In this document: positions 11,840 to 58,430 of the stretch, piece by piece
Layout: every line of letters starts with the position of its first letter
Position numbering within the stretch: position 1 is the first letter of the stretch
From: an uncultured delta proteobacterium
Lineage (GTDB): Bacteria; Desulfobacterota; Binatia; UBA9968
Length of the DNA stretch: 64,000 nucleotides
NCBI GenBank assembly: GCA_963745835.1
Contig: CAVUZH010000020.1
Coordinates: 32,001-96,000 of the forward strand
Reading direction: 5' to 3'
Position numbers and translations under genes: made by a program
The notes under the pieces: generated by a model
Database searches by the model: none
What the model was told of the DNA's origin: nothing
What the model saw: only the letters and a program-made list of their open reading frames with translations

Positions 11840-12146
11840 TGTCCACCTCCTGCTACGTGTCACTGGATCTTCTCGGGCGCCGAGCCATACCTGCGAGTCC
11901 ATTGTGCCCGAGCTCTTACCTGCACGGCGTCTATCGCTCGTGCTGAGAATTGTCAAGGCGGTTGAGATCGTCTTCTCAGATAATCACCCGGAAACCAGAA
12001 TTGACAAACTCCGCGGAAAACAACTCGTGCGTGATCTGTTGTCCGACTCTTCTTGGGATGCCTGACCACCGCCGAGCAGAAGCCACGCTCTGAGCTCAAC
12101 CAATTTTTCGGCCGCCGGGCTTGGCGACATCCTGCCGATCACGTCA

Positions 12147-12283
12147 TTGGCACGCGTCCTGGTAATGCTAGAACAGTTCGCCGGCGTCCCCCTACATCGC
12201 GGTAGTAGTCTCGGGTTTAATCGGGTTGACAATCGTGCACCGGGATCGCAGGGACCTACCTTGAGCACCCGCGGTCATGGATG
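12147..12283. repeat. Decayed gene fragment repeated at 38399-38534
   Basis: CTGGTAATGCT..AACAGTTCGCCGGCGTC...ATCGCGGTAGTAGTCTCG..TAATCGGGTT.ACAATCGTGCA...TTGAGCACCC shared by both copies. Confidence 0.8.
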
Positions 12284-12449
12284 GTTGAGCCGTAGGTCGG
12301 ACCACCGCTACATCTCCGGAGTTTCAGGCAGTTAAAACACTTTGTGGCACGCCAACACCTGGCCAAGCTATTCTCAATCCGATTCTGAACGAGAACTCCG
12401 TCCACCTGGTCAACAGCGTCCCTGATCCTCTCTCGCTCCCGCCCAGTCG

Positions 12450-12770
12450 GTGCTCACCGATAATAGCTCTGAGTTCATGAAGCACTTCGATGAGGAAATT
12501 AGAGGTCTGCACAAGAACCATTGGCATACCTATCCCAGAACACCCAATATTGAATGCCCATGGGAAATTTTAATCCACGATTAAAGAAGAATTTATTGAC
12601 TACCATGACGAACTGCTGATCACTCCCGATGAGTTCAACCGTCAACTGATCGCATGGCTCATCTGGTACAACGCTGAATGACCTAATTGGGCACCTGAAC
12701 TTAAGTCTCCAGTCGAATTTCCTGTTGAAAGAAAATCCCGCTCTGTGCAAATCATGGTGGGCCAATACAT
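12450..12770 (+). pseudogene. IS integrase-core (IS481-like) transposase C-terminal remnant
   Basis: Frameshifted VLTDNSSEF, HWHTYPRTP, EEFIDYH, WLIWYN, LKSPVEF; ends ...CCAATACA. Confidence 0.7.
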
Positions 12771-12935
12771 TTCATTGAGTTTGCCCATGACGCATGATAC
12801 GGTCGCGCGGAATCGTCGGTGCTCGAAATCCCGACAGGGCAAGGTAGCGGGCGAAGGTTTCAGATCGAATTGCATAGTCGTCATACTTTCTCCCATAGAA
12901 TCCAAACGCAGCCTCGATAAAATTTGGAGGCAGCA

Positions 12936-14579: not shown

Positions 14580-14695
14580 GCTTCCTAACCTCATTCCAGG
14601 GCCGAAATCGGATTTAAGCTTGGAGGCCTTGGCTGTCCTGCTGTTTCTACGCCCAGGATTTCAGAAAGGCTTCTTAAACGTTCGGTCTCGATCCG

Positions 14696-15973: not shown

Positions 15974-16427
15974 GAGGAGTCTGTTGGAGAACCGTGAAGT
16001 GATCGAGCAAGCGGGCACGGACTATTACGCGCTAATTCACAGGCAAAACTGGATCTATGCGCTATGCGACCGATTCGTTGACCTCCTGAAACATTGGAAC
16101 TATTGAACGATTGGAACAGTCTATTTGAGTGTTCCGACGTTGAACGCTTGAACGATTGAACGACCGCCAAGGAGGCTGCGCGTGTTCGCCTCGGATTTTC
16201 GTACGAAATCGCGATGGAAGACGCATTGCATGAGACTCAATAAAATTCTCGAATGAAAAGACATCGACGATGATCACAAAGCCATGATACTCGGAGAAAA
16301 CGCCAAGAGATTCTACCACCTCTAGCGTGAGATTCTCCCTGTTGCAGTGAACATGCGAGCGGAGTGATTAAGAAACCGTTGCCAGGCAGTCAAAGAATTC
16401 TGCTGTCGCAACGCAAAGACCTGACCC
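15974..16427 (+). mobile_element. Composite module copy A (unknown fragment + TTGAAC repeats + amidohydrolase C-terminus + Y1-transposase-like end)
   Basis: Encodes VFASDF..EIAMEDALHE..ILGENAKRFY*; ends AAGACCTGACCC 16416-16427; homologous copies at 34251, 37001, 38151, 41818. Confidence 0.8.
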
Positions 16428-16428
16428 T

Positions 16429-16650
16429 GTGGCTTGCGCACGCTTGCTGATCGATTGGGCCCTGGCGGCCGACGGCGGAATGAAATATTTCGCCGAAAAA
16501 TTCGGCCGCACGCCGACGCGAACCGGACTTGAAGAGCGCTTTCCCCTGCTTCGGGTGAACAACTATCTGGTGGTCAAGCCCGAGATCGTCGGCCCGAACT
16601 TCAAAGAATTTACCAACCTGTACAACGAGATCTTCGCGATCGGAAAGTAA
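16429..16650 (+). pseudogene. C-terminal fragment of extracellular solute-binding protein
   Basis: ARLLIDWAL..GRTPTR..; starts right after the TGACCC end, with no N-terminus. Confidence 0.6.
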
Positions 16651-16692
16651 AACAGCGCGGTCTAGGCTAAGTACTAAGTCAAGATTTGACCC

Positions 16693-17013
16693 TCAAAGTT
16701 GTTCGAGCGTCAGGCCGTCCGGACGAGCGATTCGATAGATGTAGTTCGCGGCCTTTCGGTCACCGCCGCCAGTCATGTATTCCGTCACAATATTCGGCTG
16801 TCCAGGAATATGCTTTTTCAAATACGGTAACATCGACTTCAGCCGCAAATCTCCCAACCCTCCGGGCTCCTGGCCAGCGATCACCGTGATGGTCTTGCCT
16901 TGATAAAAGAGCGCCTGCGGCAGTACCGGGTGCGGCTGGGATAAAAGGAAGAACGCCGATACGCACATGACTGCGCCGGCATTGATACCAACTTTGCGTT
17001 TCCCTGCATTCAC
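16693..17013 (-). pseudogene. N-terminal fragment of TTT (TctC/Bug-like) binding protein
   Basis: FYQGKTITVIAGQEPGG..KHIPGQPNI..PDGLTL; truncated at AAGATTTGACCC 16681-16692. Confidence 0.75.
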
Positions 17014-21239: not shown

Positions 21240-21627
21240 GTAGACTTGCCTGACTCGACTAAGTCTTCTCCAAACGATTGGCTGATCTTCGAGGATCGGA
21301 ACCAAGAAACTTGCCACCCTGGGAAGAGAGATAACCCTGTTCAAACACCGCCTCGCGGATGTCCGATTGCAGGATGCGTGCTGTCGGGCAGCGATCGACC
21401 TCCAATAAAAAGTGGAAGTGATTCGAGATCAAGACATAGGTGTCGAGAGAGATAGCGCTAGAGCACGGTCGGAAGCGCTTCGATGAAGGCCCAATAGTCA
21501 CTTTGCCTGATAAAAATCTTTGGCCTTCATGCACCAGGGCGTCACGTGATGACAACCTTTAACATAACTCGCGGGTGACGCGGCATCCCCAGCCTATAGG
21601 ATTAGTCGCCTAGGCAAGTCTGACGCC
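21240..21627 (-). pseudogene. Decayed, internally deleted Y1/RAYT-like transposase with residual inverted ends
   Basis: MPRHPRV start near 21586, YVLISNHFHFLLEV (HUH); AGACTTGCCT at 21242 vs AGGCAAGTCT at 21612. Confidence 0.7.
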
Positions 21628-21959
21628 GAGTTTCTTGCGTAAGCTAACTCATTTAGCAGTCTCGAATGGATTAAGTCAATCAATTGGCACAACTGAGTCG
21701 AACACATCGTCATTGATTTGCGCCACCCAATCGCCGATTTCACAATCCATGCCGCGAAGGGGCAACAATGGACCACGGCGCTAAATCAGCTTAATTCGTT
21801 GGCGCCGGAAAAACGACGATGAATACATCCGCATGATAACGTCGCTTCATACGGCGAATTCTCGGTAAGAAAGCAAAAGTAAAGACGCGACCCTACGCCG
21901 GCGCTCACGTCTGCGTCAGAACGCGTTTCTTTACTTCAGTAACGAATCATTCGGGATTA

Positions 21960-22226
21960 CCCAGGCAGAATGCCTGACGTTAAAAGAGATCGAATGGCGT
22001 TGACTACTTAAAACGAGGAAGTACCCCAACACCAGGCGCTCGTCGTGCGAGTTATTGAATCGATACAGCGGGCTTAAGCAACGGATGATCGGTGAGCGGT
22101 TCGGCGGGTAGGATGAGGGGTTGGCGCGGTCGCAGACGAGACGGGAAAGGATCGAGCCGGAACCGAAGATCCGAAAGTGGTTTCAGGATCTCTCGCGCTT
22201 AAGTACTTAAGTCAAGATTTGACCCC
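21960..22226 (+). pseudogene. C-terminal remnant plus right end of a Y1/RAYT-like element
   Basis: ELLNRYSGLKQRMIGERFGG matches ELMYRYSKISQEEIGKRFGG of 45545-46537; ends AAGATTTGACCCC 22214-22226. Confidence 0.72.
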
Positions 22227-33191: not shown

Positions 33192-34241
33192 GGGACGCTG
33201 TTGACTAACTGGACAAACTAGAATAGAGAGTGGAGAGAATCGATAAGGGCTACAGCGTATGCCGAGGCAGGCTAGACTGGATAGTCCCGGGACACTGCAC
33301 CATGTAATGATCCGAGGGATTGAAAAGAAGCGGATCGTCCTTGACGAGCAAGACCGAAAAGACTTTGTGCGCCGATTGGGTTTATTGGCCGTGGAAACGA
33401 AGACGGCGATCTATGCATGGGCGTTAATGAGCAACCATGCTCATTTGCTGGTTTGCAGCGGGACTGAGGGATTAGCCAAGTTTATGCGGCGATTTTTGAC
33501 CGGTTACGCGGTGAGTTATAACCTGCGCCATCGCCGGCATGGTCATCTTTTTCAGAACCGTTACAAATCGATGGTGTGCGACGGCGGCAGCTATTTCACC
33601 GAGCTGGTGCGCTACATCCACCTAAACCCGTTAAGAGTGGAGTTGGTAAAGGATTTGAGGCAACTGGAGAGATATCCCTATTGTGGACATGGAACAATCT
33701 TGGGAGCGCAATCAAACGCCTGGCAAGACCGCGACAGCGTGTTGGCCCAGTTTAGCCAACGCGAAGCGGAAGCGAAGGAGGCATACCGGCGCTATATTGC
33801 CGAAGGAGTCGTGCTGGGGCGGCGGCCGGAGCTGGTTGGGGGGAGTGGATCGGTTGGCGAATGGTTTGCGGTGAAATCCCAGCGGCGACGCAGGATTGAA
33901 GAGTCAACTGATGAGCGGATTTTGGGCAGCGGAGCATTTGTAAAGCGTGTTCTAAAAGAAGCAGATGCGCGGACACTCCGGCAAAACGCCTTCAAGAAAA
34001 CCAAACGCTATGCGGAGCGTGTCGTTGCCGCGGCCTGCAAGAAAGACGGCATATCGCTAACAGAACTCCGAAGCGGGAGCCGCCGTGGGAAACTGCCCGC
34101 CGTGAGAGTGAAGATCGTTCAGGGGCTTAGTGGAGGATTATGGCGTGCCCATCGCCGAGGTCGCTCGCCAAGTGGGTATCTCGACATCTGGAGTTTCAAA
34201 GATTCTGACACGAAGTTTGTCCAGCTAGTCAACAGCGTCCC
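33192..34241 (+). mobile_element. TIR-bounded Y1/RAYT-like element 1
   Basis: 28-bp TIR GGGACGCTGTTGACTA[A/G]CTGGACAAACT at 33192-33219 and 34214-34241; TA on both outer sides. Confidence 0.88.
33259..34228 (+). CDS. HUH Y1 (RAYT-like) transposase with C-terminal HTH; +1 frameshift near 34122
   Basis: HHVMIRG, MSNHAHLL, HLFQNRYKS, RYIHLNP; removing one G at 34122-34125 restores LVEDYGVPIAEVARQVGISTSGVSKIL..* with the stop inside the TIR. Confidence 0.88.
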
Positions 34242-37000: not shown

Positions 37001-37214
37001 TCGCGATGGAAGACGCACTGCATGAGATCAATGAAATTCTCGAACGGAAAGATATTCAATGGTAAGCGCAAAGCCATGATACTCGGTGAAAACGCTAAGG
37101 GATTCTACAAACTCTAATGTGAGATTCCCGTTGCTCTGAAGATGCGAGCAGGGTGATTAAGAAAGCGCTATCACGGCCAAATAATTCTGTTGGTGCAACA
37201 CAAGACCCGACGCC
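37001..37214 (+). mobile_element. Composite module copy C
   Basis: AMEDALHEINEILERKD..ILGENAKGFYKL*; ends AAGACCCGACGCC; the module's upstream piece recurs at 37293-37340. Confidence 0.78.
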
Positions 37215-37367
37215 ATGGCTGTTTCCTCTCACTTTTGACCGTGAAAAGTTAGTAGAGTTGGGCAAGTCTGACACGGGGGCGTTCTCCTTCTCGAGGAGTC
37301 TGTTGGAGAACCGTGAATTGATCTAGCGAGCGGGCACGGCATTCACCGATTGACCGAGGGCGAATGC

Positions 37368-38102: not shown

Positions 38103-38150
38103 CCGCCGCGAGATTATTCTCTTGCATCGATAGAACGGTCCGGAGAGGTC

Positions 38151-38392
38151 CGTGTTTGGGTCCGAGTTCCCGCACGAAACGCGATGGAGACGCATTGCAT
38201 GAGATCAATGAAATTCTCGAACGAAAAAATGTCAAGGATAGGCACAAAGCCATGATACTCAGAGACAACGCCAAGAGATTCTACAACCTCTAGTGTGAGA
38301 TCCTCCCTGTTGCACTGAATATGCGAGCGGAGCGAGTAAGAAACTATTGGGAGGCGTCAAAAGTTCTGTTGTCGTAATGCAAGACCTCACCC
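38151..38392 (+). mobile_element. Composite module copy D
   Basis: DALHEINEILERKNVKDRHKAMILRDNAKRFYNL*; ends AAGACCTCACCC. Confidence 0.8.
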
Positions 38393-41272: not shown

Positions 41273-41400
41273 GATTAGTCTCCTTCGGTCTTTGGGGGCT
41301 ACCATCGGAATTAACAGGTAGCGCGACGAGTAAGCAACAGGTATAAACGATCTTGATTAAAAGAGGAAAGCAGAGGATCAGGTATTAGAGATTTGACCCC

Positions 41401-41782
41401 ATCACCGCATTGCCATCACGCCTTCACGCGTTTCTTCCTGGAAATGTGCATCGACCAGGTGAGATTTATGGGAGGGCTCGTGCAACCGGATCGTTTGGGT
41501 ATCCGCATCCGCATTTGGGCCGAGGAAGAGATTCGACTCGGCCATCTTCCTGCGAAATCAGGAAATATTCTCGAAGCCGTGCTCTATCGCGGTGAGCTGC
41601 CGCGCGGTGAAATGGCGGCAATAGTCGGCACGGGAGACCGCCAAGCGCGCCGGATCATCTCAGCTCTGGTTGACAAGGGTGTATTGCAATCCGAAAGCGC
41701 GCGCGCGCCGCTGCGCCTCGCATTTCCAGCTGCGCTCGCGTCGCGCTGGATGCCGGGACTTTTCCCTGAAAGAATCGAATAA
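41401..41782 (+). pseudogene. C-terminal fragment of a Fic family protein
   Basis: FTRFFLEMCIDQVRFM..LYRGELPRG..RQARR..LRLAFP..WMPGLFP; begins at GAGATTTGACCCC 41388-41400. Confidence 0.72.
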
Positions 41783-41817: not shown

Positions 41818-42012
41818 GCGCACGAAATCGCGATGGAAGACGCATTGATTGAGATCGATAAAATTCTCGAACGAAAAGATTTCAACGATAAGCACGAAGC
41901 CATGATACTCGGGTAAAAGCGAAGAGATTCTACAAAGAAGCCAGCGGAGTGATTAAGAAAGCGTTGTCAGGAGGTCAAATAATTCTGATGTCGCAACGCG
42001 TCACCTGACCCC
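41818..42012 (+). mobile_element. Composite module copy E
   Basis: CACGAAATCGCGATGGAAGACGCATTG...GCGGAGTGATTAAGAAAGCG...GTCGCAACGC..ACCTGACCCC. Confidence 0.78.
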
Positions 42013-42213
42013 ATGTCTGCCTCGTCGACAGCGCAGGGCATTTATTTGCTCGGCTCCGGTGCATGGGGCGTCAAAGATATCCTTGCGGCGGAAAACGATC
42101 TGGGTGTTCCCGTGGTTAATCCGGTTGCCGCCCGGGTTTGGTGCGTGCAAAAGCTTTTGAGAGTCAGGAATTTGTTAAAGGGAGCGAGCCGATTACTGGA
42201 GGAATTACCTTAG
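42013..42213 (+). pseudogene. C-terminal fragment of an Asp/Glu racemase / maleate isomerase-like protein
   Basis: GIYLLGSG.W....ENDLGVPVV; starts right after TGACCCC. Confidence 0.55.
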
Positions 42214-42560
42214 AGAGCCTTGCAGTACCCGACCGAGCAGGAAACCGTGATCAGTCCGGTGAACAAACGACATGGCTGGTCAGTCAATAGAGCACAACAG
42301 CCGCATTCAACTCTTAGGGGCCTCACCATAACGGATACTGCTTGTTAGCCGAATGTTGCAGTACAAGACCTGGCCCCGCGTGACCTCTCCTAACCCCCGC
42401 TTTCACTGACACCCGACGCCTCTTTGGAACTGAGCGCCAATTCTATCGCAAAGCGGCGCTGCGCGAGGCGGTCACTGCAAAAAGCGTTTCACACACATGC
42501 TAAGTCATAGTACAAAGTATCCATATTATACTATTATTACTACACTGGGGAGGATAAACG

Positions 42561-43172: not shown

Positions 43173-43332
43173 AACTGGGGTAAGAGGCTTTTATATCAGC
43201 CCGGAGAGGGAGGTGCGGGTCGGACCAAGGCAAGTTCTTGATTTAGCGATGTAAGATAGCATAAAAGGCATCGGCTAAGCGCTTAGAAGGCCATTTTTGT
43301 GGCCGAAAGATAGCGCCTAAAGGGAACTTCCG

Positions 43333-44133
43333 ATGCCCCGAGCAAACCGCCACTTTCTTCCCGGTCATGTCTGGCATATAACCCACCGCTGTCATCAAAA
43401 GCAGTTCCTATTAAAGTTTCCCCGCGATCGTCGTTGTTATGTGTATTGGGTCTTTGAAGCCAAGAAGCGATTTGGTCTTTGCGTACTGAATTACATCGTG
43501 ACTTCTAACCACGTTCATCTTTTAGTGAAAGACACAGGTGGAAACGTTATCGCAGCCGAGCATGCAGTTCATCGCCGGTCGAACCGCGCAGGAGTACAAT
43601 CAGCGAAAGGACGCCACGGTGCATTCTGGGAAGACCATTATCATGCCACAGCCATCCAAGCTGACGAGCACCTGCATCGCTGTCTGGTCTAATCGACCTG
43701 AATATGGTTCGCGCAGGGGTAGTGAGCCATCCATGAAATGGGTGCACAGCGGTTACCGAGAGATTCAGAGACCTCCCAAGCGATACGCGATCATCGACCT
43801 CCGGGAATTAACGGGATTGTGCGGCTTTGCCGATTCGGGAGATTTTCAATTAGCGCATCGCCAGTGGGTGGAACAGACGCTTGAGCGCGGGCGCACAGTG
43901 CGTGAGGACCGCTGGTCGGAGGCCATTGCGGTCGGCAGTTTGGCATTTGTTGAGAGCGTCAAAAGTGAGCTAGCGGCAGAGCGATACATCGCGCAGTTGA
44001 GGAGAAAGACGGAGCCTATGCGTTGCGTGAACGGAGTGAGGCTTACAACGGAGATTTCGGCGGTGAAAGTGAGCCGCTAACGCTAGAAAACACGGTCTTA
44101 TGGAACGAAAACGCTGCAGCGGCAGAGACATAA
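43333..44133 (+). pseudogene. Frameshifted Y1/RAYT-like transposase
   Basis: WHITHRCH, TSNHVHLL, AFWEDHYHAT, *IDLNMVRAG, WSEAIAVGS across several frameshifts; left end GGGTCGGACCA 43217. Confidence 0.82.
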
Positions 44134-44363
44134 TTTTTCTCATCGCTGCGTCGCTAGGTACCCTTACCTACCCTTAATTAAATCCTCGCCACATGGCATG
44201 AGCTGCTTGGTATCTCCGAATCGCACGATTGTTGGGAGAATAGCCTATAGTTATCGTCGTGCGAACGATCCTCGCTGAAGAGTATGACAACCCGCGAAGA
44301 TTGACCCAGGTTGAATAACCTGCTCCACAAGACATGTAGAAGCCGTCGCTTACGCTTTGTCCA

Positions 44364-45492: not shown

Positions 45493-46540
45493 GGGTCAAA
45501 TCTTTACGTTTGTAATCCCGCCGTTTCGGTGTATAGGAAGCACCATGGCTCGGCCATTACGGATCGCCTATGCTCACGCCTTCTATCACGTAGGTTGCCG
45601 TGGTAACGATCGGAGAGAGATCTATAAGGACGATATCGATCGGACTGTCTTTTTGGAAAAGCTTCAGAGCTCGTTAGAAATCTATGGAGTTAAGCTTCAC
45701 GCCTACGTGCTCATGAGCAATCATTTTCATCTCATCATCGAGACGCCCAAGGCGAACCTGTCTGAATTCATGAGGCATTTCAATATTGCATACACCGGCG
45801 CCTATAACCGCCGGCATAAGCGAGTAGGGCATCTCTATCAGGGACGCTATAAAGCTATACTCGTGGACAAAGACAGCTATTTGTCGGAGCTGAGCCGTTA
45901 TGTGCACGTCAATCCTGTGAGGGTGGGCACGCAGAAGAGCAAAAGCCCTGATCAACAGCTTCGGCTATTGGAGAAATATCGCTGGAGTAGTTTGGCGGGA
46001 TACCTAGCATCCCATCAGAAACAAGCATGGGTTATTTACTACGCGGTGCTGGGCCAGTTTGGTGGTTCCAGGAGCAAGTACAGAGAGTTTGTCGCTGAGG
46101 CGATCCAGCAGGGATACGCCACGCCGTGGAAGGATCTCAAAGCGCAGGTTGTACTGGGCAGTGCTGAGTTTTTTACCAAAGTGAAAGCACGAGTCAGTCA
46201 TACCGGGTCGCGCCGTGAACAGCCGGCTATGAGGGCCTTTGAAGCAATCGATGCCGACGATGTGGTGAACCGGGTAAGCCGCTATTTGAAGGTCAAGGCG
46301 CAGGAATTAACAAAGAAACGGACACCTTACCGAGACTCCCGGTCGATTGCCATGGAGTTGATGTATCGTTATAGCAAGATCAGTCAGGAAGAGATCGGCA
46401 AGCGATTCGGTGGTCTCGATTACAGCGCGGTGAGTCGGGAGAGAAAGAGGCTAAGAGAGCGAATGCAAGTAGATCGAAACTTACGTGAGTCGGCGCAAGC
46501 AATCGATGCGATGCTTATCACAAAGGTAAAGATTTGACCC
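45493..46540 (+). mobile_element. TIR-bounded Y1/RAYT-like element 2
   Basis: 21-bp TIR GGGTCAAATCTTTAC[G/C]TTTGT at 45493-45513 and 46520-46540. Confidence 0.88.
45545..46537 (+). CDS. HUH Y1 (RAYT-like) transposase with C-terminal HTH, intact
   Basis: YHVGCRGN, MSNHFHLI, HLYQGRYKA, RYVHVNP, YRWSS, QEEIGKRFGGLDYSAVS; TGA lies in the TIR. Confidence 0.92.
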   Translation: MARPLRIAYAHAFYHVGCRGNDRREIYKDDIDRTVFLEKLQSSLEIYGVKLHAYVLMSNHFHLIIETPKANLSEFMRHFNIAYTGAYNRRHKRVGHLYQGRYKAILVDKDSYLSELSRYVHVNPVRVGTQKSKSPDQQLRLLEKYRWSSLAGYLASHQKQAWVIYYAVLGQFGGSRSKYREFVAEAIQQGYATPWKDLKAQVVLGSAEFFTKVKARVSHTGSRREQPAMRAFEAIDADDVVNRVSRYLKVKAQELTKKRTPYRDSRSIAMELMYRYSKISQEEIGKRFGGLDYSAVSRERKRLRERMQVDRNLRESAQAIDAMLITKVKI

Positions 46541-47366: not shown

Positions 47367-47368
47367 TA

Positions 47369-50312: not shown

Positions 50313-50600
50313 TTCCAGGGTCAGGTCTATCATCGCTGCACAAACACATGCGCCGGTTAACCATGCTCGCTTCCGAATCCCAATCTCAAACTCGATGATG
50401 CCGCGACCGCTGGTAATGCTGGCGCAGCAGATCTCTGCCGTAATCGTTGCCGTTGGGCGTCCGCACGATGACGTGAATATGATCTTTGTAATGCTCTTTG
50501 TATTGGGGAAAGGCCTGGCCGGCTTGATGATCGAACTCGACCAACAACACCGGGCTATGGATGCGGTAATAGAAAACGCTGTCTTCTTCCACGCCGCCGA
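50313..50600 (-). repeat. 288-bp direct duplicate of 52878-53165 (DUF3500 C-terminus + end motif)
   Basis: 286/288 identical by eye; starts TTCCAGGGTCAGGTCT. Confidence 0.92.
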
Positions 50601-51789: not shown

Positions 51790-52929
51790 TCACTGGGCTT
51801 TCTTCAGTCGATCGAACTGGGACTTGAACTTTTCACAAGGGTCTTCGTCGTCGATCCGTGGCGTGAACCAAACGTAATCAAAAGGCAATCGGCCATCGGA
51901 GTACGGCAGCGCGTAACTCTGCGGCGTGGTCTTCTGTTTATCGACTTCGACGAAAGATATGCTGATCACCCGCTTGTCCGGCGCCTTTGCTCTGATGTAA
52001 ACGGGTATGCCGTAATCGTCGCGGACATGACCGGCTCCGGCTACCAGGATCGCACCGCCGGGATCTCCCGCTGCAATCAAGCTCTGCGCCATCTGAGCGT
52101 CCCTGGCCCGCTGTACATCAACCATCGGTTTCAGGCTTTTCTCCGGTGCATAGCCGCAATGAGCGTCGCGTATATCAGCCGCCATGCTAGCGAACACAGG
52201 TTCGGGCGGCGGCCTGTCGAGACCCAATTCGCGCATCACCCGCGGATCGAGAGCGGCCAAGCCATCCCTGCTCATCTTCCTCGCAGTCGCAAGCGGCAAA
52301 TTCGTCGCGACGATTCTTAACTTTGCTTGAAGCGCGGCCTCGGCGATCGGCTGATACATCGCCCAATCCGGCCATCCACGTTGGTTCCAATTCACTGCCC
52401 TGCCAAGCCCGGCAGCATCGTTCGGAGCGGCGGCGAGATGTCCGGCGATAATGCTGGCGTCGTCAAGGCCGAGCATTTCAAATGCCACTGCGGGATGTCG
52501 TCCAACGGCGATCAGGCTCCGAAGCACTTCGGCCTGCAGCATGTGATGGTCGGGGTTGTCATGCCGCTCGCCGAGAAGGACGAAATCAGCGCGAGCCAAA
52601 CGCTCGACCAGAGTCTCGCGATCGATGAATCGGTCGGAGGAGACGTCCCAAATACGTCCGGCGAGAGGATGATTTCGACCTAGTGGTGATTTCCACGAGG
52701 TGGCCGAGCATCCTGCCAGGACACACGCTACGTAGCCCACGAGCAGTGCAAGTAAAGTCGTCGCGTGATGTCTTACTTGAAACCCAGCGGGCGATATCCC
52801 TCGTGCATCTGCAAGTGAAAAGTCGATTCCTTCACGGAATAACCGCGCCGTCTGTTGATTTTCAGCAGCAGTAAAATTTCCAGGGTCAGGTCTATCATCG
52901 CAGCGCAAACACATGCGCCGGTTAACCAT
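51790..52929 (-). CDS. ChaN family lipoprotein (true start probably downstream of 52880)
   Basis: LAGC lipobox, VLLGERHDNPDHH, AFEM, QRARDAQMA, AGAGHVR. Confidence 0.82.
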   Translation of the reverse strand: MVNRRMCLRCDDRPDPGNFTAAENQQTARLFREGIDFSLADARGISPAGFQVRHHATTLLALLVGYVACVLAGCSATSWKSPLGRNHPLAGRIWDVSSDRFIDRETLVERLARADFVLLGERHDNPDHHMLQAEVLRSLIAVGRHPAVAFEMLGLDDASIIAGHLAAAPNDAAGLGRAVNWNQRGWPDWAMYQPIAEAALQAKLRIVATNLPLATARKMSRDGLAALDPRVMRELGLDRPPPEPVFASMAADIRDAHCGYAPEKSLKPMVDVQRARDAQMAQSLIAAGDPGGAILVAGAGHVRDDYGIPVYIRAKAPDKRVISISFVEVDKQKTTPQSYALPYSDGRLPFDYVWFTPRIDDEDPCEKFKSQFDRLKKAQ

Positions 52930-52950
52930 GCTCGCTTCCGAATCCCAATC

Positions 52951-54138
52951 TCAAACTCGATGATGCCGCGACCGCTGGTAATGCTGGCGCAGCAGATCTC
53001 TGCCGTAATCGTTGCCGTTGGGCGTCCGCACGATGACGTGAATATGATCTTTGTAATGCTCTTTGTATTGGGGAAAGGCCTGGCCGGCTTGATGATCGAA
53101 CTCGACCAACAACACCGGGCTATGGATGCGGTAATAGAAAACGCTGTCTTCTTCCACGCCGCCGATCCAGGCAAAATAAGTGTCTTTGAAGTGCGAATGG
53201 GTTTCGGCCAATTTGATCGCCGCGTGACCGGGCCGCAGTTTGCCGACGTGAATCTCGACCAGCTGCGCCAGCAAATCATGCTGGGCGCCGTTTAACTGGT
53301 CATAGCGGATGCCTTGATACCCGAGTTCCAGGTTATCGCGGAAAGCCGTGGTGAATAGGTCCTTGGGCAGGCTCGCGCCGATCACCGCTTTGCCGCGCTG
53401 TTCGCCGGTCAGGCTGCGCATTAGCGCGAGGCCGCGCGCTTCTTCGGCCTGAAAGACCCGTGTGCCGGCGTATTTGCCGCTCAAGGCATGCACGGGCTCG
53501 GAGCCGAGAAATGCCGGCGTCATGGTTACCTGATCGCCGAGCACAAAAAAGTTGACGTTCAAATGATGACCGTCGATCTGCCAGCCCCAGGGCTCTTTTT
53601 CGGAGGGTGTGCCCATGATGCTGAGCCAATACAGATCCTCGCCGAACTCGTCGAGCTTGCCGGTCATTTCCATGACGGTCTCGTTAAGTCGCATGATGTC
53701 CCGCGCAGTTTGAAATCCTTGGGCGCTGAGGCTTTCTTGGAGCAGAGCCAACGCGTGATCGATCTGGCGGTCGGTCATGGCAAACAACGGCATACCATGG
53801 CGCATGATCGTGCGGTGGATATTGCTCCACAAGCGCCATTCGGGCGCGTCGACGGGGAAGAGCGTGTGGCGGCGCTGCTCGGCATCGAGCGAGGCGAGAA
53901 ACGCTTCAGCGGCTTCGCGGATGGGCTCCGTCGAAACTCCGGTCTTCTGAATGGGAAATAGTCCCTGAAGCGGCGCGCCGTCGGTAGTAACGCCTTTCCA
54001 GTTTTCGCCGAGCGCCTTGGCGGCGTTGTCGGCATAGTTCGGCGGACCGCCGCCGATGCGCAACGGCCGGCCGTTGCGCCGCGCCGCGGCGATGGCCGCA
54101 GGTTGATTGGTCGGTTTGGCTTCGCTGATGCTCATCAC
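52951..54138 (-). CDS. DUF3500 domain protein
   Basis: WSNIH, WGWQIDGHHL, TPAFLG, FYYRIHSP..VEFDH, HIH..RTPNGNDYG. Confidence 0.88.
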   Translation of the reverse strand: MMSISEAKPTNQPAAIAAARRNGRPLRIGGGPPNYADNAAKALGENWKGVTTDGAPLQGLFPIQKTGVSTEPIREAAEAFLASLDAEQRRHTLFPVDAPEWRLWSNIHRTIMRHGMPLFAMTDRQIDHALALLQESLSAQGFQTARDIMRLNETVMEMTGKLDEFGEDLYWLSIMGTPSEKEPWGWQIDGHHLNVNFFVLGDQVTMTPAFLGSEPVHALSGKYAGTRVFQAEEARGLALMRSLTGEQRGKAVIGASLPKDLFTTAFRDNLELGYQGIRYDQLNGAQHDLLAQLVEIHVGKLRPGHAAIKLAETHSHFKDTYFAWIGGVEEDSVFYYRIHSPVLLVEFDHQAGQAFPQYKEHYKDHIHVIVRTPNGNDYGRDLLRQHYQRSRHHRV

Positions 54139-55299: not shown

Positions 55300-55786
55300 A
55301 CGGGAAGCTGTCAGGAGTGAAGGGTAAATAGTAAGGACTCAACCCGGGTCAAATTTGTGTCCGTCTCCTGGACCTAATTCCGTTCACTCGTCACATTTTG
55401 CTCCTGACTCTTCACTGTTCCGATGGGTTCGCAGCAGATCCCATCGAAGTTTATCCTCAAGCACTCCGGCTTGAATCCCGACAAAGACGTGATCGATCGC
55501 GTCCATCGATACCATAATCGCAGCGGTGCAGTCTCGGGCTACATTGACAGCTCCCGGATATATTAAGTGAGGCGTTTTGGTGGATGTCACCTTTGCTCCA
55601 ATAAGCGCCTAACGAGCATTGCGGTAGAAATTAAACGTGCAACACCGCTGGGCTCGTTTCTTTTGACACCGATCCAGAGACGGCGAAATCTCCGATGCGA
55701 CAGCATCGCTACTAAGTCGTTTGCCAGTCTCGTTCCGTCCATATATGAGCTAGAGATCATTTCGTTGACAAAAGCGAGGAGTCCCC

Positions 55787-57508
55787 ATGGAATCCAACAA
55801 GACCGTAACTCTACCCGTCGAGACCGTCGGCCAGGCTTATTTAGAAGTCCTGCGCGCGCGGGGGATAAAATATTTTTTCGGCAACAGCGGAACTGACTTC
55901 GGCCCGATCATCGATGCGTTGGCCAAGCTGGCGGCGGATAAGAAAGAATTTCCAAGGCCGATCACGGTTGCCCACGAGTTCGTCGCGGTGAGCATGGCGC
56001 AGGGCTATGCAATGATCACCGGTGAGCCGCAGGTCGTCATGGTTCACGTGATCGTCGGCACGGGAAACGCTTCGGCGGCGGTGATGAATGCGTCGCGGCT
56101 GAATGTGCCGATGATTTTTTCCGCGGGACGGACACCGCTCACCGAAGAGGGGCTGACCGGCAGCCGGAGCAATTTCATCCACTGGGGCCAGGAATCCTTC
56201 GATCAGGGCAGTTTGCTGCGCGAGTTCACCCGCTGGGATTACGAGCTGCGCAACGGTCAGCAAGTGGAGACAGTGGTCGATCGCGCGCTAGAAATGACGC
56301 TGGGCACGCCGCAAGGGCCGGTGTACTTGACCTTGCCCCGCGAAGTCCTGGCGCAGAAGATGGACTCGATTACAATCCATCCGTATCGGAAAAACAGAGA
56401 AGAGCCTTTGCAGCCGAGTGCGGAATCGATCAGGCGTACCGCGGAAATCCTCCGCAGGGCGACCAATCCGTTGATCATCACCGGCCGGCTGGGTTCAGAT
56501 CCGACGGCGGTCAGCGCAATGGTTTCCTTTGCGGAAGCGTTGGTTGCGCCCGTGGTCGCGCCGGCAAGTCCGTTCGTGAGCATGCCCAACACGCACGACT
56601 ATCACCTTGGCGTGAGCTCAGCCCCTTACATCAAAGATGCGGATGTCGTGGTGGTCGTCGAAAGCGATGTGCCCTGGTATCCAGCTCAGGGAAAGCCGCC
56701 GGAAACTGCCAAGGTCATTCAGATCGCGCGCGATCCGAACTACAGCGGCGTGCCGATCCGCAGCTTTCCGAAAGATATTTCCATCGGCGGCGATCCCAAG
56801 CTCTCGCTCCAATTGCTGGCTGAAGAATTACGAAAAGGACCACGCGATGAGAAGGCTCTTTCGGAGCGCGCCGAGCACATCCGCGCTAGGCATAAGAAAT
56901 ATCGTGAGGACGTGAAGCAAAAAGCGGAGAAGGCGAGCGGCTACCGGCCGATCAGTCACGCTTGGCTGGCGTGTTGCGTCGATCAGGTGCGCGATCGCGA
57001 CACGGTTGTGTTGAGCGATCATGGCATCGGCAACGAAGTGCTCAACTTGAGCGAACCGGAAACTTATTTCGGCGGCTCGCCCGCGGGAGGATTGGGTTGG
57101 GGCATCGGCGGCGGTTTGGGCATGAAGCTCGCGCGTCCGGAAAAAACTTTCATCGTCACCGTCGGTGACGGGACCTACATGTTCAACAATCCGACCGCCT
57201 GCCATCTGGTGTCGCAATCTTACGGTCTGCCGATGCTGACGATCATCTGTAACAACGCGATCTGGCATGCCAGCAAAGCGGCGACACAGCAGGTGATGCC
57301 GGACGGGTGGGCGGTCAGCACGGGCAATTTCCCGTTGTGCGATCTCACACCGTCACCGCGCTACGAAAAGATCGTCGAAGCGCACGACGGTTACGGCGAA
57401 ATGGTCGAAGATCCTCAGCAACTGCTATCGGCGCTGCAGCGGGCGCTCAAAGTTGTCAAAGAGGAAAAACGCCAGGCGGTGCTGAACGTGATTTGCGGCA
57501 GTCACTGA
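55787..57508 (+). CDS. Thiamine pyrophosphate-requiring enzyme (ALS/benzoylformate decarboxylase-like)
   Basis: FGNSGTDF, HEFVAVSMA, GPVYLTLPRE, GDGTYMF..NN. Confidence 0.9.
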   Translation: MESNKTVTLPVETVGQAYLEVLRARGIKYFFGNSGTDFGPIIDALAKLAADKKEFPRPITVAHEFVAVSMAQGYAMITGEPQVVMVHVIVGTGNASAAVMNASRLNVPMIFSAGRTPLTEEGLTGSRSNFIHWGQESFDQGSLLREFTRWDYELRNGQQVETVVDRALEMTLGTPQGPVYLTLPREVLAQKMDSITIHPYRKNREEPLQPSAESIRRTAEILRRATNPLIITGRLGSDPTAVSAMVSFAEALVAPVVAPASPFVSMPNTHDYHLGVSSAPYIKDADVVVVVESDVPWYPAQGKPPETAKVIQIARDPNYSGVPIRSFPKDISIGGDPKLSLQLLAEELRKGPRDEKALSERAEHIRARHKKYREDVKQKAEKASGYRPISHAWLACCVDQVRDRDTVVLSDHGIGNEVLNLSEPETYFGGSPAGGLGWGIGGGLGMKLARPEKTFIVTVGDGTYMFNNPTACHLVSQSYGLPMLTIICNNAIWHASKAATQQVMPDGWAVSTGNFPLCDLTPSPRYEKIVEAHDGYGEMVEDPQQLLSALQRALKVVKEEKRQAVLNVICGSH

Positions 57509-57683
57509 GGCGGCGGGTTTCTTCCTGGGTCGCCCGTTGAAAGGATCCGGCGCTACGCGTCAAGGTTGCGCCAGTGCGGAGATCGATGTCCTTACCCCGC
57601 AGCACCGATCATTCGCTCCTGGCGAACGGATCTTTGATCGACGCCCCGCTTGTCGCGGTGTGCCCGTGCCGGCGCTCCGATAA

Positions 57684-58265
57684 TCAGCGAGCTAACGACG
57701 TACTTGGCTTGCCTCTTTGCAGCACCGACCCGACGATTGCCCCGCCGACCGCCGCGCTCAGGATTGTCCTCCATGGCCGGGGACGTTGCACGAGTTCGAA
57801 CTCGACGCTTCGAATATGATCATCCTTCTTGAGCATGACAGACGCGCTCTGTGGCTCGATGCTGCGAGAGCCAATTAATACAACCGCAACCGGATTGGCC
57901 CGGCTCCATATGCCTCTTAGAGTCGGCGTGATTCGATACTGCCCGTCGGGAAAAGCATTCAGATGGATGCCTTGCCCCCAGATTTGAAAACTAAGCTGGT
58001 GGTAATCGCCTTCATCCGGTAAGTCCCAACAAGAAACAGAATCAACCACATCTTTCCAGATGCCGGTGCCGGGAATCGGCTCGTACTTTCCACCGCCGAC
58101 AGCGCGGAACTGAGTTGCCGTATGCTCTTCCACGCGAATGTTGAAACCGCTGCACAGATCGCCCAGAGGTCTACCGATGTATTTCTTCCAACGGATGGTG
58201 CCAAAGATCGTCGGTGGTAATGCCACGAGATCGTCGATCGAAACTGTGTCAAACGCTTGCATCAT
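57684..58265 (-). CDS. Hypothetical protein
   Basis: 193-aa ORF with GGAGAG RBS; no recognised motif. Confidence 0.5.
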   Translation of the reverse strand: MMQAFDTVSIDDLVALPPTIFGTIRWKKYIGRPLGDLCSGFNIRVEEHTATQFRAVGGGKYEPIPGTGIWKDVVDSVSCWDLPDEGDYHQLSFQIWGQGIHLNAFPDGQYRITPTLRGIWSRANPVAVVLIGSRSIEPQSASVMLKKDDHIRSVEFELVQRPRPWRTILSAAVGGAIVGSVLQRGKPSTSLAR

Positions 58266-58430
58266 CTTCTCTCCCCATGCGGACTAGAATATTCACGTCT
58301 TCTTCAAACAGTGGCAGTAGTAGGGTCGATCTCTATCTTTGACATTGCTCCAGGTGTTTGACTCAGACTTTGACTTCTCGGCGCGGGTCAGGATTTCAAA
58401 ATACCTGTTCCTTGTCCCGTCGTAAGTCGC

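What the first reader, a model, noticed from the sequence alone, without database searches (positions are those of the whole stretch)
12060..58395. About 20 orphan TGACCC-type ends, many at junctions between unrelated gene fragments
Seen: motif variants near 12061, 16416, 16681, 17028(-), 21616, 21882, 22214, 34627, 37202, 37264, 38381, 41388, 42003, 42365, 42411, 44297, 48845, 50318(-), 52883(-), 55346(-) and 58386(-). All are in intergenic or debris zones. Fragments start or stop within a few bases of several: SBP C-terminus (16429), TTT N-terminus (16693), repeated fragment (38399), Fic C-terminus (41401), racemase-like C-terminus (42013). AAGATTTGACCC is identical to the right TIR end of the intact transposase at 46529-46540. 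Inference: these are recombination scars of the Y1 system that build cassette-like mosaics, functionally reminiscent of an integron array but with no integrase or attC.
Basis: partly seen in the sequence, partly recalled or inferred. Interest (0 to 1): 0.8.

Follow-up and report, generated by a model that had tools for sequence, protein, structure and literature searches.

The report
Decayed tyrosine-transposon ends mark gene-fragment junctions
The repeated TGACCC motif is the outer tip of the inverted repeats that flank a little-studied class of tyrosine (HUH) transposons, and this stretch of a soil bacterium's genome is a graveyard of such elements whose leftover ends sit at the breakpoints of broken and reshuffled genes.

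Summary
AAGAYYTGACCC occurs 5 times exactly in the window (0.11 expected from the rest of the genome) and 5 times with one mismatch (1.06 expected). Two-mismatch variants are at background. In all, 15 of the 21 listed sites hold up and 6 do not.

The motif is the outer terminus of the terminal inverted repeats (TIRs) of TIRYT/TIRtron elements. These are Y1 HUH transposases with a DnaA_C-like HTH, described in silico in 2013 and 2018. The same terminus flanks the gene in 61 of 80 related loci from other phyla.

The window holds one intact element (45493-46540), one multi-copy element (33192-34241), six decayed transposase-gene remnants (two of them weak matches) and about a dozen solo or derivative TIRs.

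Four truncated genes (SBP, TctC, Fic, racemase) abut TIR outer ends. Ten of 21 TIR ends lie within 10 nt of a homology-block boundary (1.4 expected).

A module made of an Amidohydro_2 C-terminus, about 110 nt and a TIR occurs 5 times here and 7 times in three congeners. Its TIR boundary is sharp and its inner boundary varies.

No integron integrase or attC-like fold was found, and genes between the repeats are not co-oriented, so the integron analogy is not supported. I cannot tell whether the breakpoints arose by transposase action or by ordinary recombination between the repeats.

The parts
45493..46540 (+). Intact TIRtron, my label 'IS-B', 1048 bp. Left TIR 45493-45516, TIRYT gene 45545-46537 (330 aa), right TIR 46517-46540. 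The gene's TGA stop codon lies inside AAGATTTGACCC.
   Evidence: Pfam Y1_Tnp 8.9e-14 and Bac_DnaA_C 1.5e-8. The two arms match at 22 of 24 positions (read by eye). Related elements are 1044-1140 bp long in 61 of 80 loci. Independent PWM scores are 21.0 and 17.8 bits.
33192..34241 (+). Second Y1 element, 'IS-A', with 25-bp TIRs GGGACGCTGTTGACTAnCTGGACAA. ORF 33259-34266. One extra A shifts the C-terminal frame relative to the copy on contig C13.
   Evidence: Pfam Y1_Tnp 2.3e-8. Copies of 97.9% and 98.4% nucleotide identity lie on C13 and C5. Ends were defined by a three-copy alignment. The 14-mer of the end occurs 11 times in the genome.
12400..12422 (+).
   Evidence: Exact 14-mer GTCAACAGCGTCCC with similar inner bases.
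16173..16427 (+). Module copy c16: Amidohydro_2 C-terminal remnant (frameshifted), about 110 nt, then a TIR ending AAGACCTGACCC. A left extension 16018-16172 is shared with c34.
   Evidence: The coding part matches residues 249-328 of a 346-aa Amidohydro_2 protein of G021.
16429..16650 (+). C-terminal 73 codons of an extracellular solute-binding protein gene. The fragment starts at the outer end of the c16 TIR.
   Evidence: The 396-aa orthologue is intact in G001:C46 (SBP_bac_6). DNA identity is 93% over 16445-16657.
16658..16692 (+). Solo TIR ending AAGATTTGACCC, same sub-type as 22196-22225.
   Evidence: Exact 12-mer. PWM built from other phyla scores 13.4 bits. The inner 20 nt are shared with 22214.
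16693..17013 (-). N-terminal 106 codons of a TctC-type (tripartite tricarboxylate) binding protein gene, cut off at the outer end of the solo TIR.
   Evidence: It aligns to the N-terminal parts of paralogue frames of 357-398 aa (seven of 95 hits printed). The family label rests on the paralogue 25368-26423, Pfam TctC.
21367..21627 (-). Decayed TIRYT N-terminal fragment (21367-21558) with its left-end TIR GCAAGTCTGACGCC at 21614-21627.
   Evidence: tblastn E 0.004, weak. The TIR sub-family has 4 copies in the genome.
21868..21893 (+). Solo TIR of the sub-type ending AAGACGCGACCC.
   Evidence: The 12-mer has 5 copies in the genome, all with TIR-like inner sequence. Aligned to the right end of IS-B.
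22022..22225 (+). Decayed C-terminal (HTH) part of a TIRYT gene with its right TIR (22196-22225).
   Evidence: tblastn E 2.3e-5 to residues 284-352 of the IS-B frame. PWM 17.1 bits.
34407..34625 (+). Module copy c34, broken off before the TIR. It lies just right of IS-A.
37001..37213 (+). Module copy c37 with a degenerate TIR (AAGACCCGACGC). It starts 26 nt after the stop codon of an NMT1-type binding protein gene.
37250..37275 (+). Solo TIR of the GCAAGTCTGACAC sub-type.
   Evidence: 29 nt at 96.6% identity to C22:281675-281703. Four copies in the genome.
38125..38392 (+). Module copy c38 (TIR AAGACCTCACCC). It starts 23 nt after the stop codon of a PIN gene.
   Evidence: The orthologue in G005:C140 is 91% identical up to 38395 and unrelated beyond.
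41373..41399 (+). Solo TIR (GAGATTTGACCC). Its inner part is shared with 58385-58410.
41401..41782 (+). C-terminal roughly 120 codons of a Fic-family gene, starting within about 20 nt of the TIR outer end.
   Evidence: 78-84% identity to the C-termini of 412-428-aa frames in 6 genomes. The Fic domain lies at residues 131-238 of the 410-aa ORF in G050.
41819..42014 (+). Module copy c41 with an internal deletion and the TIR ...ACCTGACCC.
42013..42213 (+). C-terminal 61-66 codons of an Asp/Glu-racemase-like gene, starting at the TIR outer end.
Evidence: 90% identity to residues 234-295 of a 295-aa frame on C2 and C21.
42237..42376 (-). Decayed N-terminal TIRYT fragment with its left TIR (42352-42376, AAGACCTGGCCC on the + strand).
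   Evidence: tblastn E 0.001. 86.6% identity to C2:6126-6476. One mismatch to the motif.
43217..43733 (+). Remnant of a fourth Y1 gene family with the left end GGGTCGGACCAAGGCAAGTTCTTGATT.
   Evidence: tblastn E 7e-10. Pfam Y1_Tnp 19.2 bits, below the cut-off of 23. The left end is shared with two copies on C22.
44297..44307 (+). TIR-like 11-mer AAGATTGACCC (one base missing). It may be the right end of the 43217 remnant or a solo end.
   Evidence: Weak.
50313..50600 (-). 288-bp copy (99.3%) of the DUF3500 gene's 3' end plus downstream DNA. One boundary lies 5 nt outside TAGACCTGACCC.
52878..53165 (-). Master copy of the same 288 bp: the end of the intact DUF3500 gene (52951-54138) and the TIR-like site between it and the next gene.
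58385..58410 (-). TIR-like end GGGTCAGGATTTCAAAATACCTGTTCC, related to 41373-41399.

Best explanation
The TGACCC-type motif is the outer terminus of the terminal inverted repeats of TIRYT/TIRtron elements. These are small (about 1.05 kb) mobile elements. Each encodes a Y1 HUH tyrosine transposase fused to a DnaA_C-like helix-turn-helix.

The window is a sink where at least six or seven sub-families of these elements have landed and decayed. It holds one intact copy, one copy of a currently multi-copy element, six transposase-gene remnants (four of them with tblastn E at or below 0.004, two weaker) and about a dozen solo or derivative ends.

Shown:
- what the motif is;
- its conservation across phyla;
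- the remnants;
- that element ends coincide with the truncation points of four genes;
- that element ends coincide with the points where otherwise near-identical relatives diverge.

Inferred:
- elements and one end-bearing module inserted repeatedly into this region;
- later deletions, duplications and exchanges anchored at the ends produced the mosaic of gene fragments. These arose either by recombination between the dispersed repeat copies or by transposase-mediated events at a single end.

The array is debris of transposition. It is not an organised cassette system.
For: Identity of the gene:
- The gene 45545-46537 has Y1_Tnp (8.9e-14) and Bac_DnaA_C (1.5e-8).
- It is flanked by inverted 24-bp repeats whose tips are the motif.

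Literature:
- Passages read in PMC3733652 and PMC6006769 describe exactly this architecture. Both give the TIR consensus GGGGWSAS.
- PMC3733652 notes solo, dimeric and clustered TIR copies.
- PMC6006769 found no REP-like sequences near the genes of its subclass 2.1.

Conservation:
- 61 of 80 related loci from other phyla carry GGGTCA...TGACCC arms 1044-1140 bp apart. The consensus is TGGGGTCAAATCTTTATTCTTGACATTT.
- A PWM built only from those 122 foreign ends finds 11 sites of 14 bits or more in this genome against 1 in the reversed genome. Three of the 11 are in the window.

Enrichment in the window:
- 5 exact and 5 one-mismatch sites, against 0.11 and 1.06 expected.

Other sub-families on other contigs:
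- On C2 the variant AAGACCTGACCC flanks another TIRYT gene in inverted orientation.
- On C3 GGGTCAAATC precedes a 61%-identical gene.

Remnants:
- Transposase remnants sit at the expected distance from orphan ends at 21616, 22214 and 42365.

Breakpoints:
- Four truncated genes abut TIR outer ends.
- 10 of 21 TIR outer ends lie within 10 nt of a within-genome homology boundary. The random mean is 1.42, and 0 of 5000 random sets reach 10.
- G001:C46 and G004:C552 are 94.7% identical over 1.9 kb up to the last base of a TIR and unrelated beyond.
- G000 and G005 behave likewise at 38392-38395.

Assembly:
- Contigs from independent metagenome runs cross the junctions at 34241, 38392 and 42014.
Against: - No experiment has shown that any TIRYT transposes. 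Both papers I read are in silico, and I saw passages of them only.
- The tests of junction coincidence are not independent, because module copies are paralogues of one another.
- Recombination between any dispersed repeat would place breakpoints at its borders. The coincidence alone therefore does not implicate the transposase.
- Six of the 21 sites are not distinguishable from chance.
- Two remnants (21367-21558; 14595-14672) rest on weak tblastn matches, with E 0.004 and 0.06.
- I found no target-site duplication pattern in the flanks of 61 foreign elements (read by eye). The true cleavage points are therefore unknown.
- The relatives are fragmented metagenome-assembled genomes whose contigs often stop in repeats.
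Confidence: 0.8

Rival explanations
1. One-ended, TIR-anchored copying. A single inverted repeat lying next to host DNA is used in trans by a TIRYT as an origin or terminus. Segments are copied that all share the TIR end but stop at variable distances inside. This would resemble IS91/ISCR one-ended transposition or Helitron gene capture, and it would spread gene 3' ends and create TIR|new-DNA junctions.
For: - The Amidohydro_2-tail module: 9 copies with a TIR across 4 genomes all end at AAGACCTGAC. Their inner boundaries vary between about 195 and more than 400 nt.
- A second array on contig C13 (561-572 kb and 629 kb) has the same geometry, with inner boundaries at -294, -223, -194, -130 and -63.
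- A 99.3%-identical 288-bp duplicate has one border 5 nt outside the TIR.
- In an unrelated 7.8-Mb genome (L115) three 300-430-nt modules end in the TIR. A 97.7% duplicate of an asparaginase-like 3' gene fragment starts 14 nt outside one of them. The asparaginase name is my reading of the translation and was not tested.
Against: - The copies c16 and c38 share about 10 nt beyond the TIR by blastn, and about 25-30 nt by my reading of the alignment. At least that pair therefore arose by ordinary segmental duplication.
- Short remnants may simply be what survives deletion.
- No junction motif was found at the inner borders.
- No circular or joined forms were seen, though Logan contigs cannot show rare forms.
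- IS91-type enzymes are a different HUH class. I saw IS91 papers only as a search listing.
Confidence: 0.2
2. One reading: an integron-like cassette system. The Y1 enzyme recombines solo ends site-specifically, so that genes bounded by the repeats are excised, inserted and reordered as cassettes.
For: - The repeats lie mostly in one orientation between 12 and 45 kb: 13 of 14 orphan ends are on the + strand (my tally).
- Three module copies start 23-37 nt after the stop codon of a same-strand gene.
- The intervening blocks include toxin-antitoxin genes (PIN; Phd/ParE).
- The order of blocks differs between congeners, with breaks at the ends.
Against: - No integron integrase.
- The ends do not fold better than shuffles.
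- Genes between the repeats lie on both strands, and many are fragments.
- The inner border of the repeat is variable.
- The module is found in only 4 of 8 genomes of the genus searched, at 1-5 copies each, and in none of the 53 other genomes of the family except as a coding-only match in 2.
- No block was found intact in two different array positions.
Confidence: 0.07
3. A domesticated REP/RAYT-like system. The short repeats are host-maintained REPIN-like sequences with a cellular role, such as mRNA stability or termination, and the Y1 gene is a single-copy domesticated partner.
For: - The intact gene is single-copy in this genome.
- Several repeats sit just downstream of genes.
- Y1 enzymes of the RAYT type are the closest characterised relatives.
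Against: - No palindrome: fold z-scores are near zero.
- Low copy number: 17 exact motif copies in 7.3 Mb.
- Several diverged sub-families exist, with decayed transposase genes.
- A sister element is present in three full copies of about 98% identity, plus fragments.
- The repeats abut broken genes.
Confidence: 0.04
4. Chance matches or a chimeric assembly.
For: - Two-mismatch variants occur at the background rate: 15 against 13.3 expected.
- Six listed sites have no other support.
- The genome is a metagenome-derived assembly with 9.3% estimated contamination.
Against: - Exact and one-mismatch sites are 45-fold and 5-fold enriched.
- An independent PWM recovers them.
- The same module and junction types occur in three other genomes of the genus.
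- Contigs of runs from other studies span the junctions.
Confidence: 0.02

Closest known systems
TIRYT / TIRtron elements (Di Nocera et al. 2013, PMC3733652; subclass 2.1.2 of Quentin et al. 2018, PMC6006769)
   Same: - Y1 HUH transposase with HUH and catalytic Tyr motifs.
- C-terminal Bac_DnaA_C-like HTH.
- Flanked by terminal inverted repeats carrying GGGGWSAS, here GGGGTCAA/G.
- No REP hairpins.
- Solo, paired and clustered TIR copies in the genome.
   Different: - The host lineage appears to be new for this class. Its nearest relatives are named Binatia or Deltaproteobacteria MAGs.
- Several co-resident TIR sub-families have decayed in one 46-kb stretch.
- TIR ends lie at the truncation points of host genes.
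- A gene-tail + TIR module has a variable inner border. I did not see this described in the passages I read. The figures and supplements of both papers were not available to me.
REP/RAYT (REPIN) systems
   Same: Related Y1 enzyme. Short repeats dispersed in trans, often just after genes.
   Different: REPs are GTAG- or CGTC-tagged palindromes in tens to hundreds of copies, with a single-copy domesticated gene. Here the repeats do not fold, are few, and come with multi-copy and decayed genes.
IS200/IS605 family
   Same: Same Pfam transposase domain (PF01797). Single-strand HUH chemistry is presumed.
   Different: As I recall it, IS200/IS605 elements have sub-terminal hairpins, no inverted repeats and no HTH domain, and they insert next to a fixed tetra- or pentanucleotide. 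None of these features is seen here.
IS91/ISCR and Helitrons (rolling-circle, one-ended transposition)
   Same: HUH enzymes. They produce copies that share one end and vary at the other, and they capture neighbouring gene pieces. This geometry resembles the modules here.
   Different: A different HUH class (recalled). The ends are not inverted repeats. The likeness is in outcome only and is untested.
Integron cassette arrays
   Same: A row of like-oriented repeats separating unrelated genes, among them toxin-antitoxin pairs.
   Different: No IntI, no attC fold, no co-orientation of genes. Many of the would-be cassettes are gene fragments.

Membership tests
TIRYT/TIRtron | Y1 HUH transposase domain (PF01797) with the HUH motif and a catalytic tyrosine | tested here: met
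   Y1_Tnp 8.9e-14 for 45545-46537 and 2.3e-8 for 33259-34266. HFH (in SNHFHLII) and RYVHVNP are visible in the translation.
TIRYT/TIRtron | C-terminal HTH (Bac_DnaA_C, HTH_23 or HTH_28), as in subclass 2.1.2 | tested here: met
   Bac_DnaA_C 1.5e-8, residues 238-299 of the 45545 protein. Pfam does not detect it in the 33259 protein, whose C-terminus is frameshifted.
TIRYT/TIRtron | Gene flanked by terminal inverted repeats carrying GGGGWSAS, not by REP palindromes | tested here: met
   24-bp arms, 22 of 24 positions matching, with the tip GGGGGTCAAATC. The C2 element has the tip GGGGTCAG. 61 of 80 relatives have the same arms. Folding of the ends is no better than shuffles.
TIRYT/TIRtron | TIR copies also present away from the gene (single, dimeric, clustered) | tested here: met
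   for this genome. Unpaired copies are also present in 3 other genomes, G073, G075 and G076.
TIRYT/TIRtron | Transposition activity of the protein on its TIRs | not testable with these tools
   Indirect only: three full copies of about 98% identity, plus fragments, of the sister element.
Integron | IntI-type tyrosine recombinase next to the array | tested here: not met
   Best TIGR02249 match in the genome is 86 bits against a cut-off of 265. None lies on contig C20.
Integron | attC sites: imperfect palindromes that fold as single strands, with RYYYAAC / GTTRRRY boxes | tested here: not met
   Fold z-scores of the module end are 0.11 and 0.43. The boxes are not seen by eye. No formal attC covariance model was available.
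Integron | Co-oriented, mostly promoterless single-gene cassettes | tested here: not met
   Genes between the repeats lie on both strands, number one to several, and many are fragments.
REP/RAYT | High-copy GTAG/CGTC-tagged palindromic repeats flanking a single-copy gene | tested here: not met
   17 exact motif copies in the genome. No palindrome.
IS200/IS605 | Sub-terminal hairpins, no inverted repeats, fixed target tetranucleotide at the left end | tested here: not met
   Inverted repeats are present. No hairpin. The flanks of 61 elements are not conserved.
IS91/ISCR-type one-ended transposition | Copies sharing one defined end, with variable length at the other | tested here: inconclusive
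   The geometry is met in three arrays. It is also explained by deletion or segmental duplication, since c16 and c38 share flank beyond the end.

The most novel reading that the evidence does not exclude
TIRYT enzymes act on single inverted repeats. They copy or join DNA from one end only, so that a solo repeat next to a host gene seeds short copies of that gene's tail, anchored at the end. These copies land elsewhere and truncate other genes. TIRYTs would then be a bacterial Y1-HUH counterpart of IS91/ISCR or Helitron gene capture. This would explain TIR-anchored modules in unrelated phyla: this window, contig C13, and L115 from another lineage.
Probability: 0.2. Interest if true: 0.7.

Novelty: new member of a known kind. 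Interest (0 to 1): 0.4.

Why it matters
TIRYT elements are widespread. A single query found 187 relatives, and the titles of the records kept name many phyla. In the library searched, the term TIRYT occurs in three held papers (two distinct works) and TIRtron in one. The passages I read are computational, and nothing I saw tests how these elements move.

This window gives a compact natural record of what their ends do over time. It holds intact, multi-copy, decayed and solo forms side by side, with ends at the breakpoints of four host genes and at the points where near-identical relatives diverge.

It also supplies a precise, cross-phylum consensus of the end (TGGGGTCAAATCTTTATTCTTGACATTT) and defined substrates for a first biochemical test.

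For annotation, recognising the 12-mer explains a set of otherwise puzzling pseudogene borders as ordinary mobile-element debris.

Tried and rejected
- **Rfam:** no family reached its gathering score anywhere in the window.
- **Folding:** the module end, both ends of the intact element and their reverse strands fold no better than shuffles. I dropped a REP-like or IS200-like hairpin reading.
- **Integron integrase:** nothing over the cut-off.
- **Target-site duplication:** the flanks of 61 foreign elements show no consistent direct repeat (by eye). Three of four local elements have matching dinucleotides at their flanks, but that is too few to claim.
- **Spacing of flanking homology:** homology often resumes 12-22 nt beyond the GACCC tip. 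The three IS-A copies diverge within 3 nt of their tips, so I make no claim about a distant cleavage site.
- **Strand bias:** 13 of 14 orphan ends left of 45 kb are on the + strand, and 3 of 3 right of 50 kb are on the - strand. These are paralogues, not independent events. GC skew changes sign near 24-32 kb, not there. Unexplained.
- **GC content:** only a shallow dip to 0.52 at 44-48 kb. No clear island signature.
- **Pfam on the module's translation:** nothing for the 71-aa and 91-aa pieces. Identity was settled through the full-length G021 homologue instead, which has no TIR downstream.
- **Left borders of the modules:** no shared motif.
- **Read laying:** bins between about 44.4 and 48.4 kb, which include the intact element, had little or no cover in the four runs. 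I draw nothing from that. The joints listed there mostly reflect paralogous copies (c16 contigs laid on c34/c41).
- **Unpublished genomes:** G012 and G018 appeared in the tables.
- **Papers:** supplementary files and figures were not available. Figure 9 and Additional file 5 of PMC3733652 and the supplementary tables of PMC6006769 may already list this TIR type or related taxa. Of both papers I read passages only. The RAYT and IS91 papers I saw only as search listings and abstracts.

Full report
**What is there**

The 12-mer AAGATTTGACCC occurs exactly at 16681, 22214 and 46529 on the + strand and at 45493 on the - strand. The whole 7.28-Mb genome holds 9 copies, so 4 of the 9 lie in this 64-kb window.

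I widened the motif to AAGAYYTGACCC and used the rest of the genome as the background:

| mismatches | genome | window | expected in window |
|---|---|---|---|
| 0 | 17 | 5 | 0.11 |
| 1 | 124 | 5 | 1.06 |
| 2 | 1513 | 15 | 13.3 |

The two-mismatch class is at background.

**What the motif is**

The copies at 45493(-) and 46529(+) are the tips of two 24-bp inverted repeats, which match at 22 of 24 positions. They bracket an ORF at 45545-46537.

- The ORF has a Y1_Tnp domain (8.9e-14) and a Bac_DnaA_C helix-turn-helix (1.5e-8).
- Its TGA stop codon lies inside the motif.

This architecture has a name.

- Di Nocera et al. 2013 called such genes TIRYTs and the units TIRtrons. They gave GGGGWSAS as the shared TIR motif and noted single, dimeric and grouped TIR copies (passages of PMC3733652).
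- Quentin et al. 2018 placed most of these genes in their subclass 2.1, whose subgroup 2.1.2 carries the Bac_DnaA_C or HTH extension. They found no REP-like sequences beside them (passages of PMC6006769).

The tips here read GGGGTCAA and, in a second sub-family, GGGGTCAG.

A scan of one genome per species found 187 relatives of the protein. The best 80 loci were kept, at up to 68% identity, from MAGs whose record titles name many phyla.

- 61 of the 80 loci have GGGTCA...TGACCC arms 1044-1140 bp apart, with at least 17 of 26 matching positions.
- In an earlier pass with a different script, 31 of 36 loci gave an inverted pair.
- The consensus end is TGGGGTCAAATCTTTATTCTTGACATTT.
- A weight matrix built only from those 122 foreign ends finds 11 sites of 14 bits or more in this genome, against 1 in the reversed genome. 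Three are in the window; at 12 bits or more, 4 of 14 are. This test is independent of the window.

**Other sub-families in the same genome**

- On contig C2 a 44%-identical TIRYT gene is flanked by inverted AAGACCTGACCC.
- On C3 a 61%-identical gene has GGGTCAAATC upstream, twice.
- The window's second Y1 gene (33259-34266, Y1_Tnp 2.3e-8) belongs to an element of 1050 bp with 25-bp arms GGGACGCTGTTGACTAnCTGGACAA. I defined its ends by aligning three copies of about 98% identity. The 14-mer of its tip occurs 11 times in the genome. One of these is an unlisted solo copy at 12409-12422.
- Further tip variants recur with TIR-like inner sequence: GCAAGTCTGACRC (4 copies, including 21614 and 37262) and AAGACGCGACCC (5 copies, including 21882).
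- The site at 58386(-) aligns with the repeat at 41388.
- A fourth Y1 gene family leaves a remnant at 43309-43733, with its own GGGTCGGACC-type left end at 43217.

**Verdict on the list**

- **15 of 21 sites are real members of this TIR family:** 16416, 16681, 21616, 21882, 22214, 37202, 37264, 38381, 41388, 42003, 42365, 44297 (weakest), 50318, 52883 and 58386.
- **6 of 21 are not supported:** 12061, 17028, 34627, 42411, 48845 and 55346.

**Remnants**

tblastn with ten Y1 frames of the genome finds these pieces:

| place | strand | E | note |
|---|---|---|---|
| 21367-21558 | - | 0.004 | left end at 21616 |
| 22022-22219 | + | 2e-5 | right end at 22214 |
| 42237-42335 | - | 0.001 | left end at 42365 |
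| 43309-43733 | + | 7e-10 | |
| 48487-48534 | + | 0.035 | |
| 14595-14672 | + | 0.06 | |

The spacing between remnant and end matches that in intact elements, where the tip lies 49-64 nt before the start codon in 30 of the 31 loci that gave a pair.

**Junctions**

Four broken genes abut TIR outer ends.

- **SBP.** The fragment 16429-16650 is the last 73 codons of a gene that is intact (396 aa, SBP_bac_6) in G001.
- **TctC-type.** The fragment 16693-17013(-) is the first 106 codons of a gene whose printed paralogue frames run to 357-398 aa.
- **Fic.** 41401-41782 is the C-terminal 120 residues of a roughly 415-aa Fic protein.
- **Racemase-like.** 42013-42213 is residues 234-295 of a 295-aa paralogue frame.

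Of 21 TIR outer ends, 10 lie within 10 nt of a boundary of within-genome homology. Random positions give a mean of 1.42, and 0 of 5000 random sets reach 10. The copies are paralogues, so this overstates independence.

**The repeated module**

A unit of about 200-270 nt occurs five times, only in this window (16173-16427, 34407-34625, 37001-37213, 38125-38392, 41819-42014). It has three parts:

- the last 50-90 codons of an Amidohydro_2 gene (pairwise E 1e-13 to residues 249-328 of a 346-aa Amidohydro_2 protein of G021);
- about 110 nt;
- a TIR of the AAGACCTGACCC type.

Seven more copies or pieces lie in three congeners, G001, G004 and G005. Among the other 57 genomes of the family searched, only two coding-only matches were found.

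In all 9 copies that keep the TIR, similarity ends at AAGACCTGAC, while the inner border varies.

The same geometry appears in two other places:

- an array on contig C13;
- an unrelated genome, where three 300-430-nt modules end in the canonical TIR and a 97.7% duplicate of a gene's 3' part starts 14 nt outside one of them.

A 288-bp, 99.3% duplicate in the window (50313-50600 = 52878-53165) has one border 5 nt outside a TIR-like site.

**Comparison of relatives**

- G001:C46 and G004:C552 are 94.7% identical for 1.9 kb up to the last base of a module TIR and unrelated after it. The next block of G001 is 98.4% identical to a different G004 contig, and there it begins within about 10 nt of where similarity to the window's 42365-type decayed element end stops.
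- G005:C140 matches the window at 91% up to 38395. It then continues with a different piece of the racemase fragment.

These are fragmented MAGs, so contig ends in repeats limit what can be said.

**Reality of the assembly**

Logan contigs of four runs from four studies were laid on 33101-53100. Contigs without a mismatch span 34217-36360, 38348-38718 and 41825-42207. One with a single gap spans 44152-44528. Loose letters reproduce the c16 junctions.

**How it most likely works**

*Shown:*
- the ends belong to TIRYT elements;
- several sub-families have inserted here and decayed;
- their ends coincide with gene truncations and with synteny breaks.

*Inferred:*
- the HTH domain reads the conserved repeat, and the HUH/Tyr centre cuts near its tip;
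- repeated insertion, followed by deletion or exchange anchored at the ends, produced the mosaic.

Two routes fit the data, and I cannot separate them.

1. **Recombination between dispersed copies.** This necessarily places breaks at the borders of the repeat.
2. **Transposase-mediated one-ended events.** These would explain the sharp TIR border, the variable inner border, and the duplicates whose border lies at an end.

Blastn extends the similarity between c16 and c38 about 10 nt beyond the TIR, and I read about 25-30 nt in the alignment. At least that pair therefore arose by plain duplication.

**Against an integron-like system**

- No IntI.
- No attC-like fold.
- Genes lie on both strands, and many are fragments.
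- The inner border of the repeat is variable.
- Copy number is low and the distribution is narrow.

**Novelty**

The class is known, so this is a new member of a known kind, in a lineage not listed in the passages I could read. In the library searched, the term TIRYT occurs in three held papers (two distinct works) and TIRtron in one. I saw no experimental work on their mechanism, but subscription journals are not covered.

The end-anchored gene-tail modules and the ends at gene breakpoints were not described in the passages I read. I could not see the figures or supplements.

**Limits**

Only contigs, not raw reads, could be laid. The relatives are draft MAGs.

Noticed in passing
window 26449-26582: A roughly 135-nt intergenic repeat with many copies at 72-83% identity on most contigs of the genome. 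I estimate at least 70 rows, not counted exactly. Its two ends pair over about 20 bp (fold z -3.2). It looks like a MITE-type element unrelated to the TIRYT ends. No Rfam match.
   Followed up: partly
window 22497-24158: Two ORFs in the same frame are separated by one TGA. Both halves hit Pfam UGSC (profile positions 3-92 and 104-159). Read with TGA=U, the site is GVGH-U-STC. This is probably one selenoprotein gene, not a broken gene.
   Followed up: partly
window 45381-45454: Three to four tandem copies of a 20-nt unit (AGAGACTGCCATCATCGGCC) lie 38 nt outside the left end of the intact element. Function unknown.
   Followed up: no
window 16100-16160 and 34446-34500: Runs of the heptamer TTGAACG and variants lie just left of two module copies. 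They are also present in one copy in G004. They look like iterated binding sites.
   Followed up: no
window 34127: The IS-A copy here and the one on C5 carry one extra A relative to the C13 copy. This shifts the C-terminal HTH out of frame. Metagenome contigs show both forms. It could be a pseudogene or a frameshift-regulated gene.
   Followed up: partly
window 24167-24300: Another short repeat with copies in both orientations on at least five other contigs. Palindromic arrangement.
   Followed up: no
L115 (G076:C3:873000-879000) 2064-2297, 3196-3429, 4394-4627: In an unrelated genome, the canonical TIR sits about 60 nt upstream of three paralogous 77-aa ORFs with no Pfam match, where the transposase gene would normally be. 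They lie next to a DUF6119 gene. This may be a TIR-borne cargo gene.
   Followed up: partly
genome contig C13:561000-572100 and 628660-629060: A second array of TIR-anchored modules with variable inner borders. Some copies carry two TIR-like tips 24 nt apart (AAGACCTGACCC ... AAGACTTGACC).
   Followed up: partly
window 12-45 kb versus 50-58 kb: Orphan ends point one way left of 45 kb (13 of 14 on the + strand) and the other way right of 50 kb (3 of 3 on the - strand). This is not matched by the GC-skew turn at 24-32 kb.
   Followed up: partly
window 47369-49806: Two ORFs right of the intact element: 308 aa with double zinc-ribbon hits at or below the Pfam cut-offs (47369-48295), and 311 aa with no Pfam match (48871-49806). 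Their roles are unknown.
   Followed up: no
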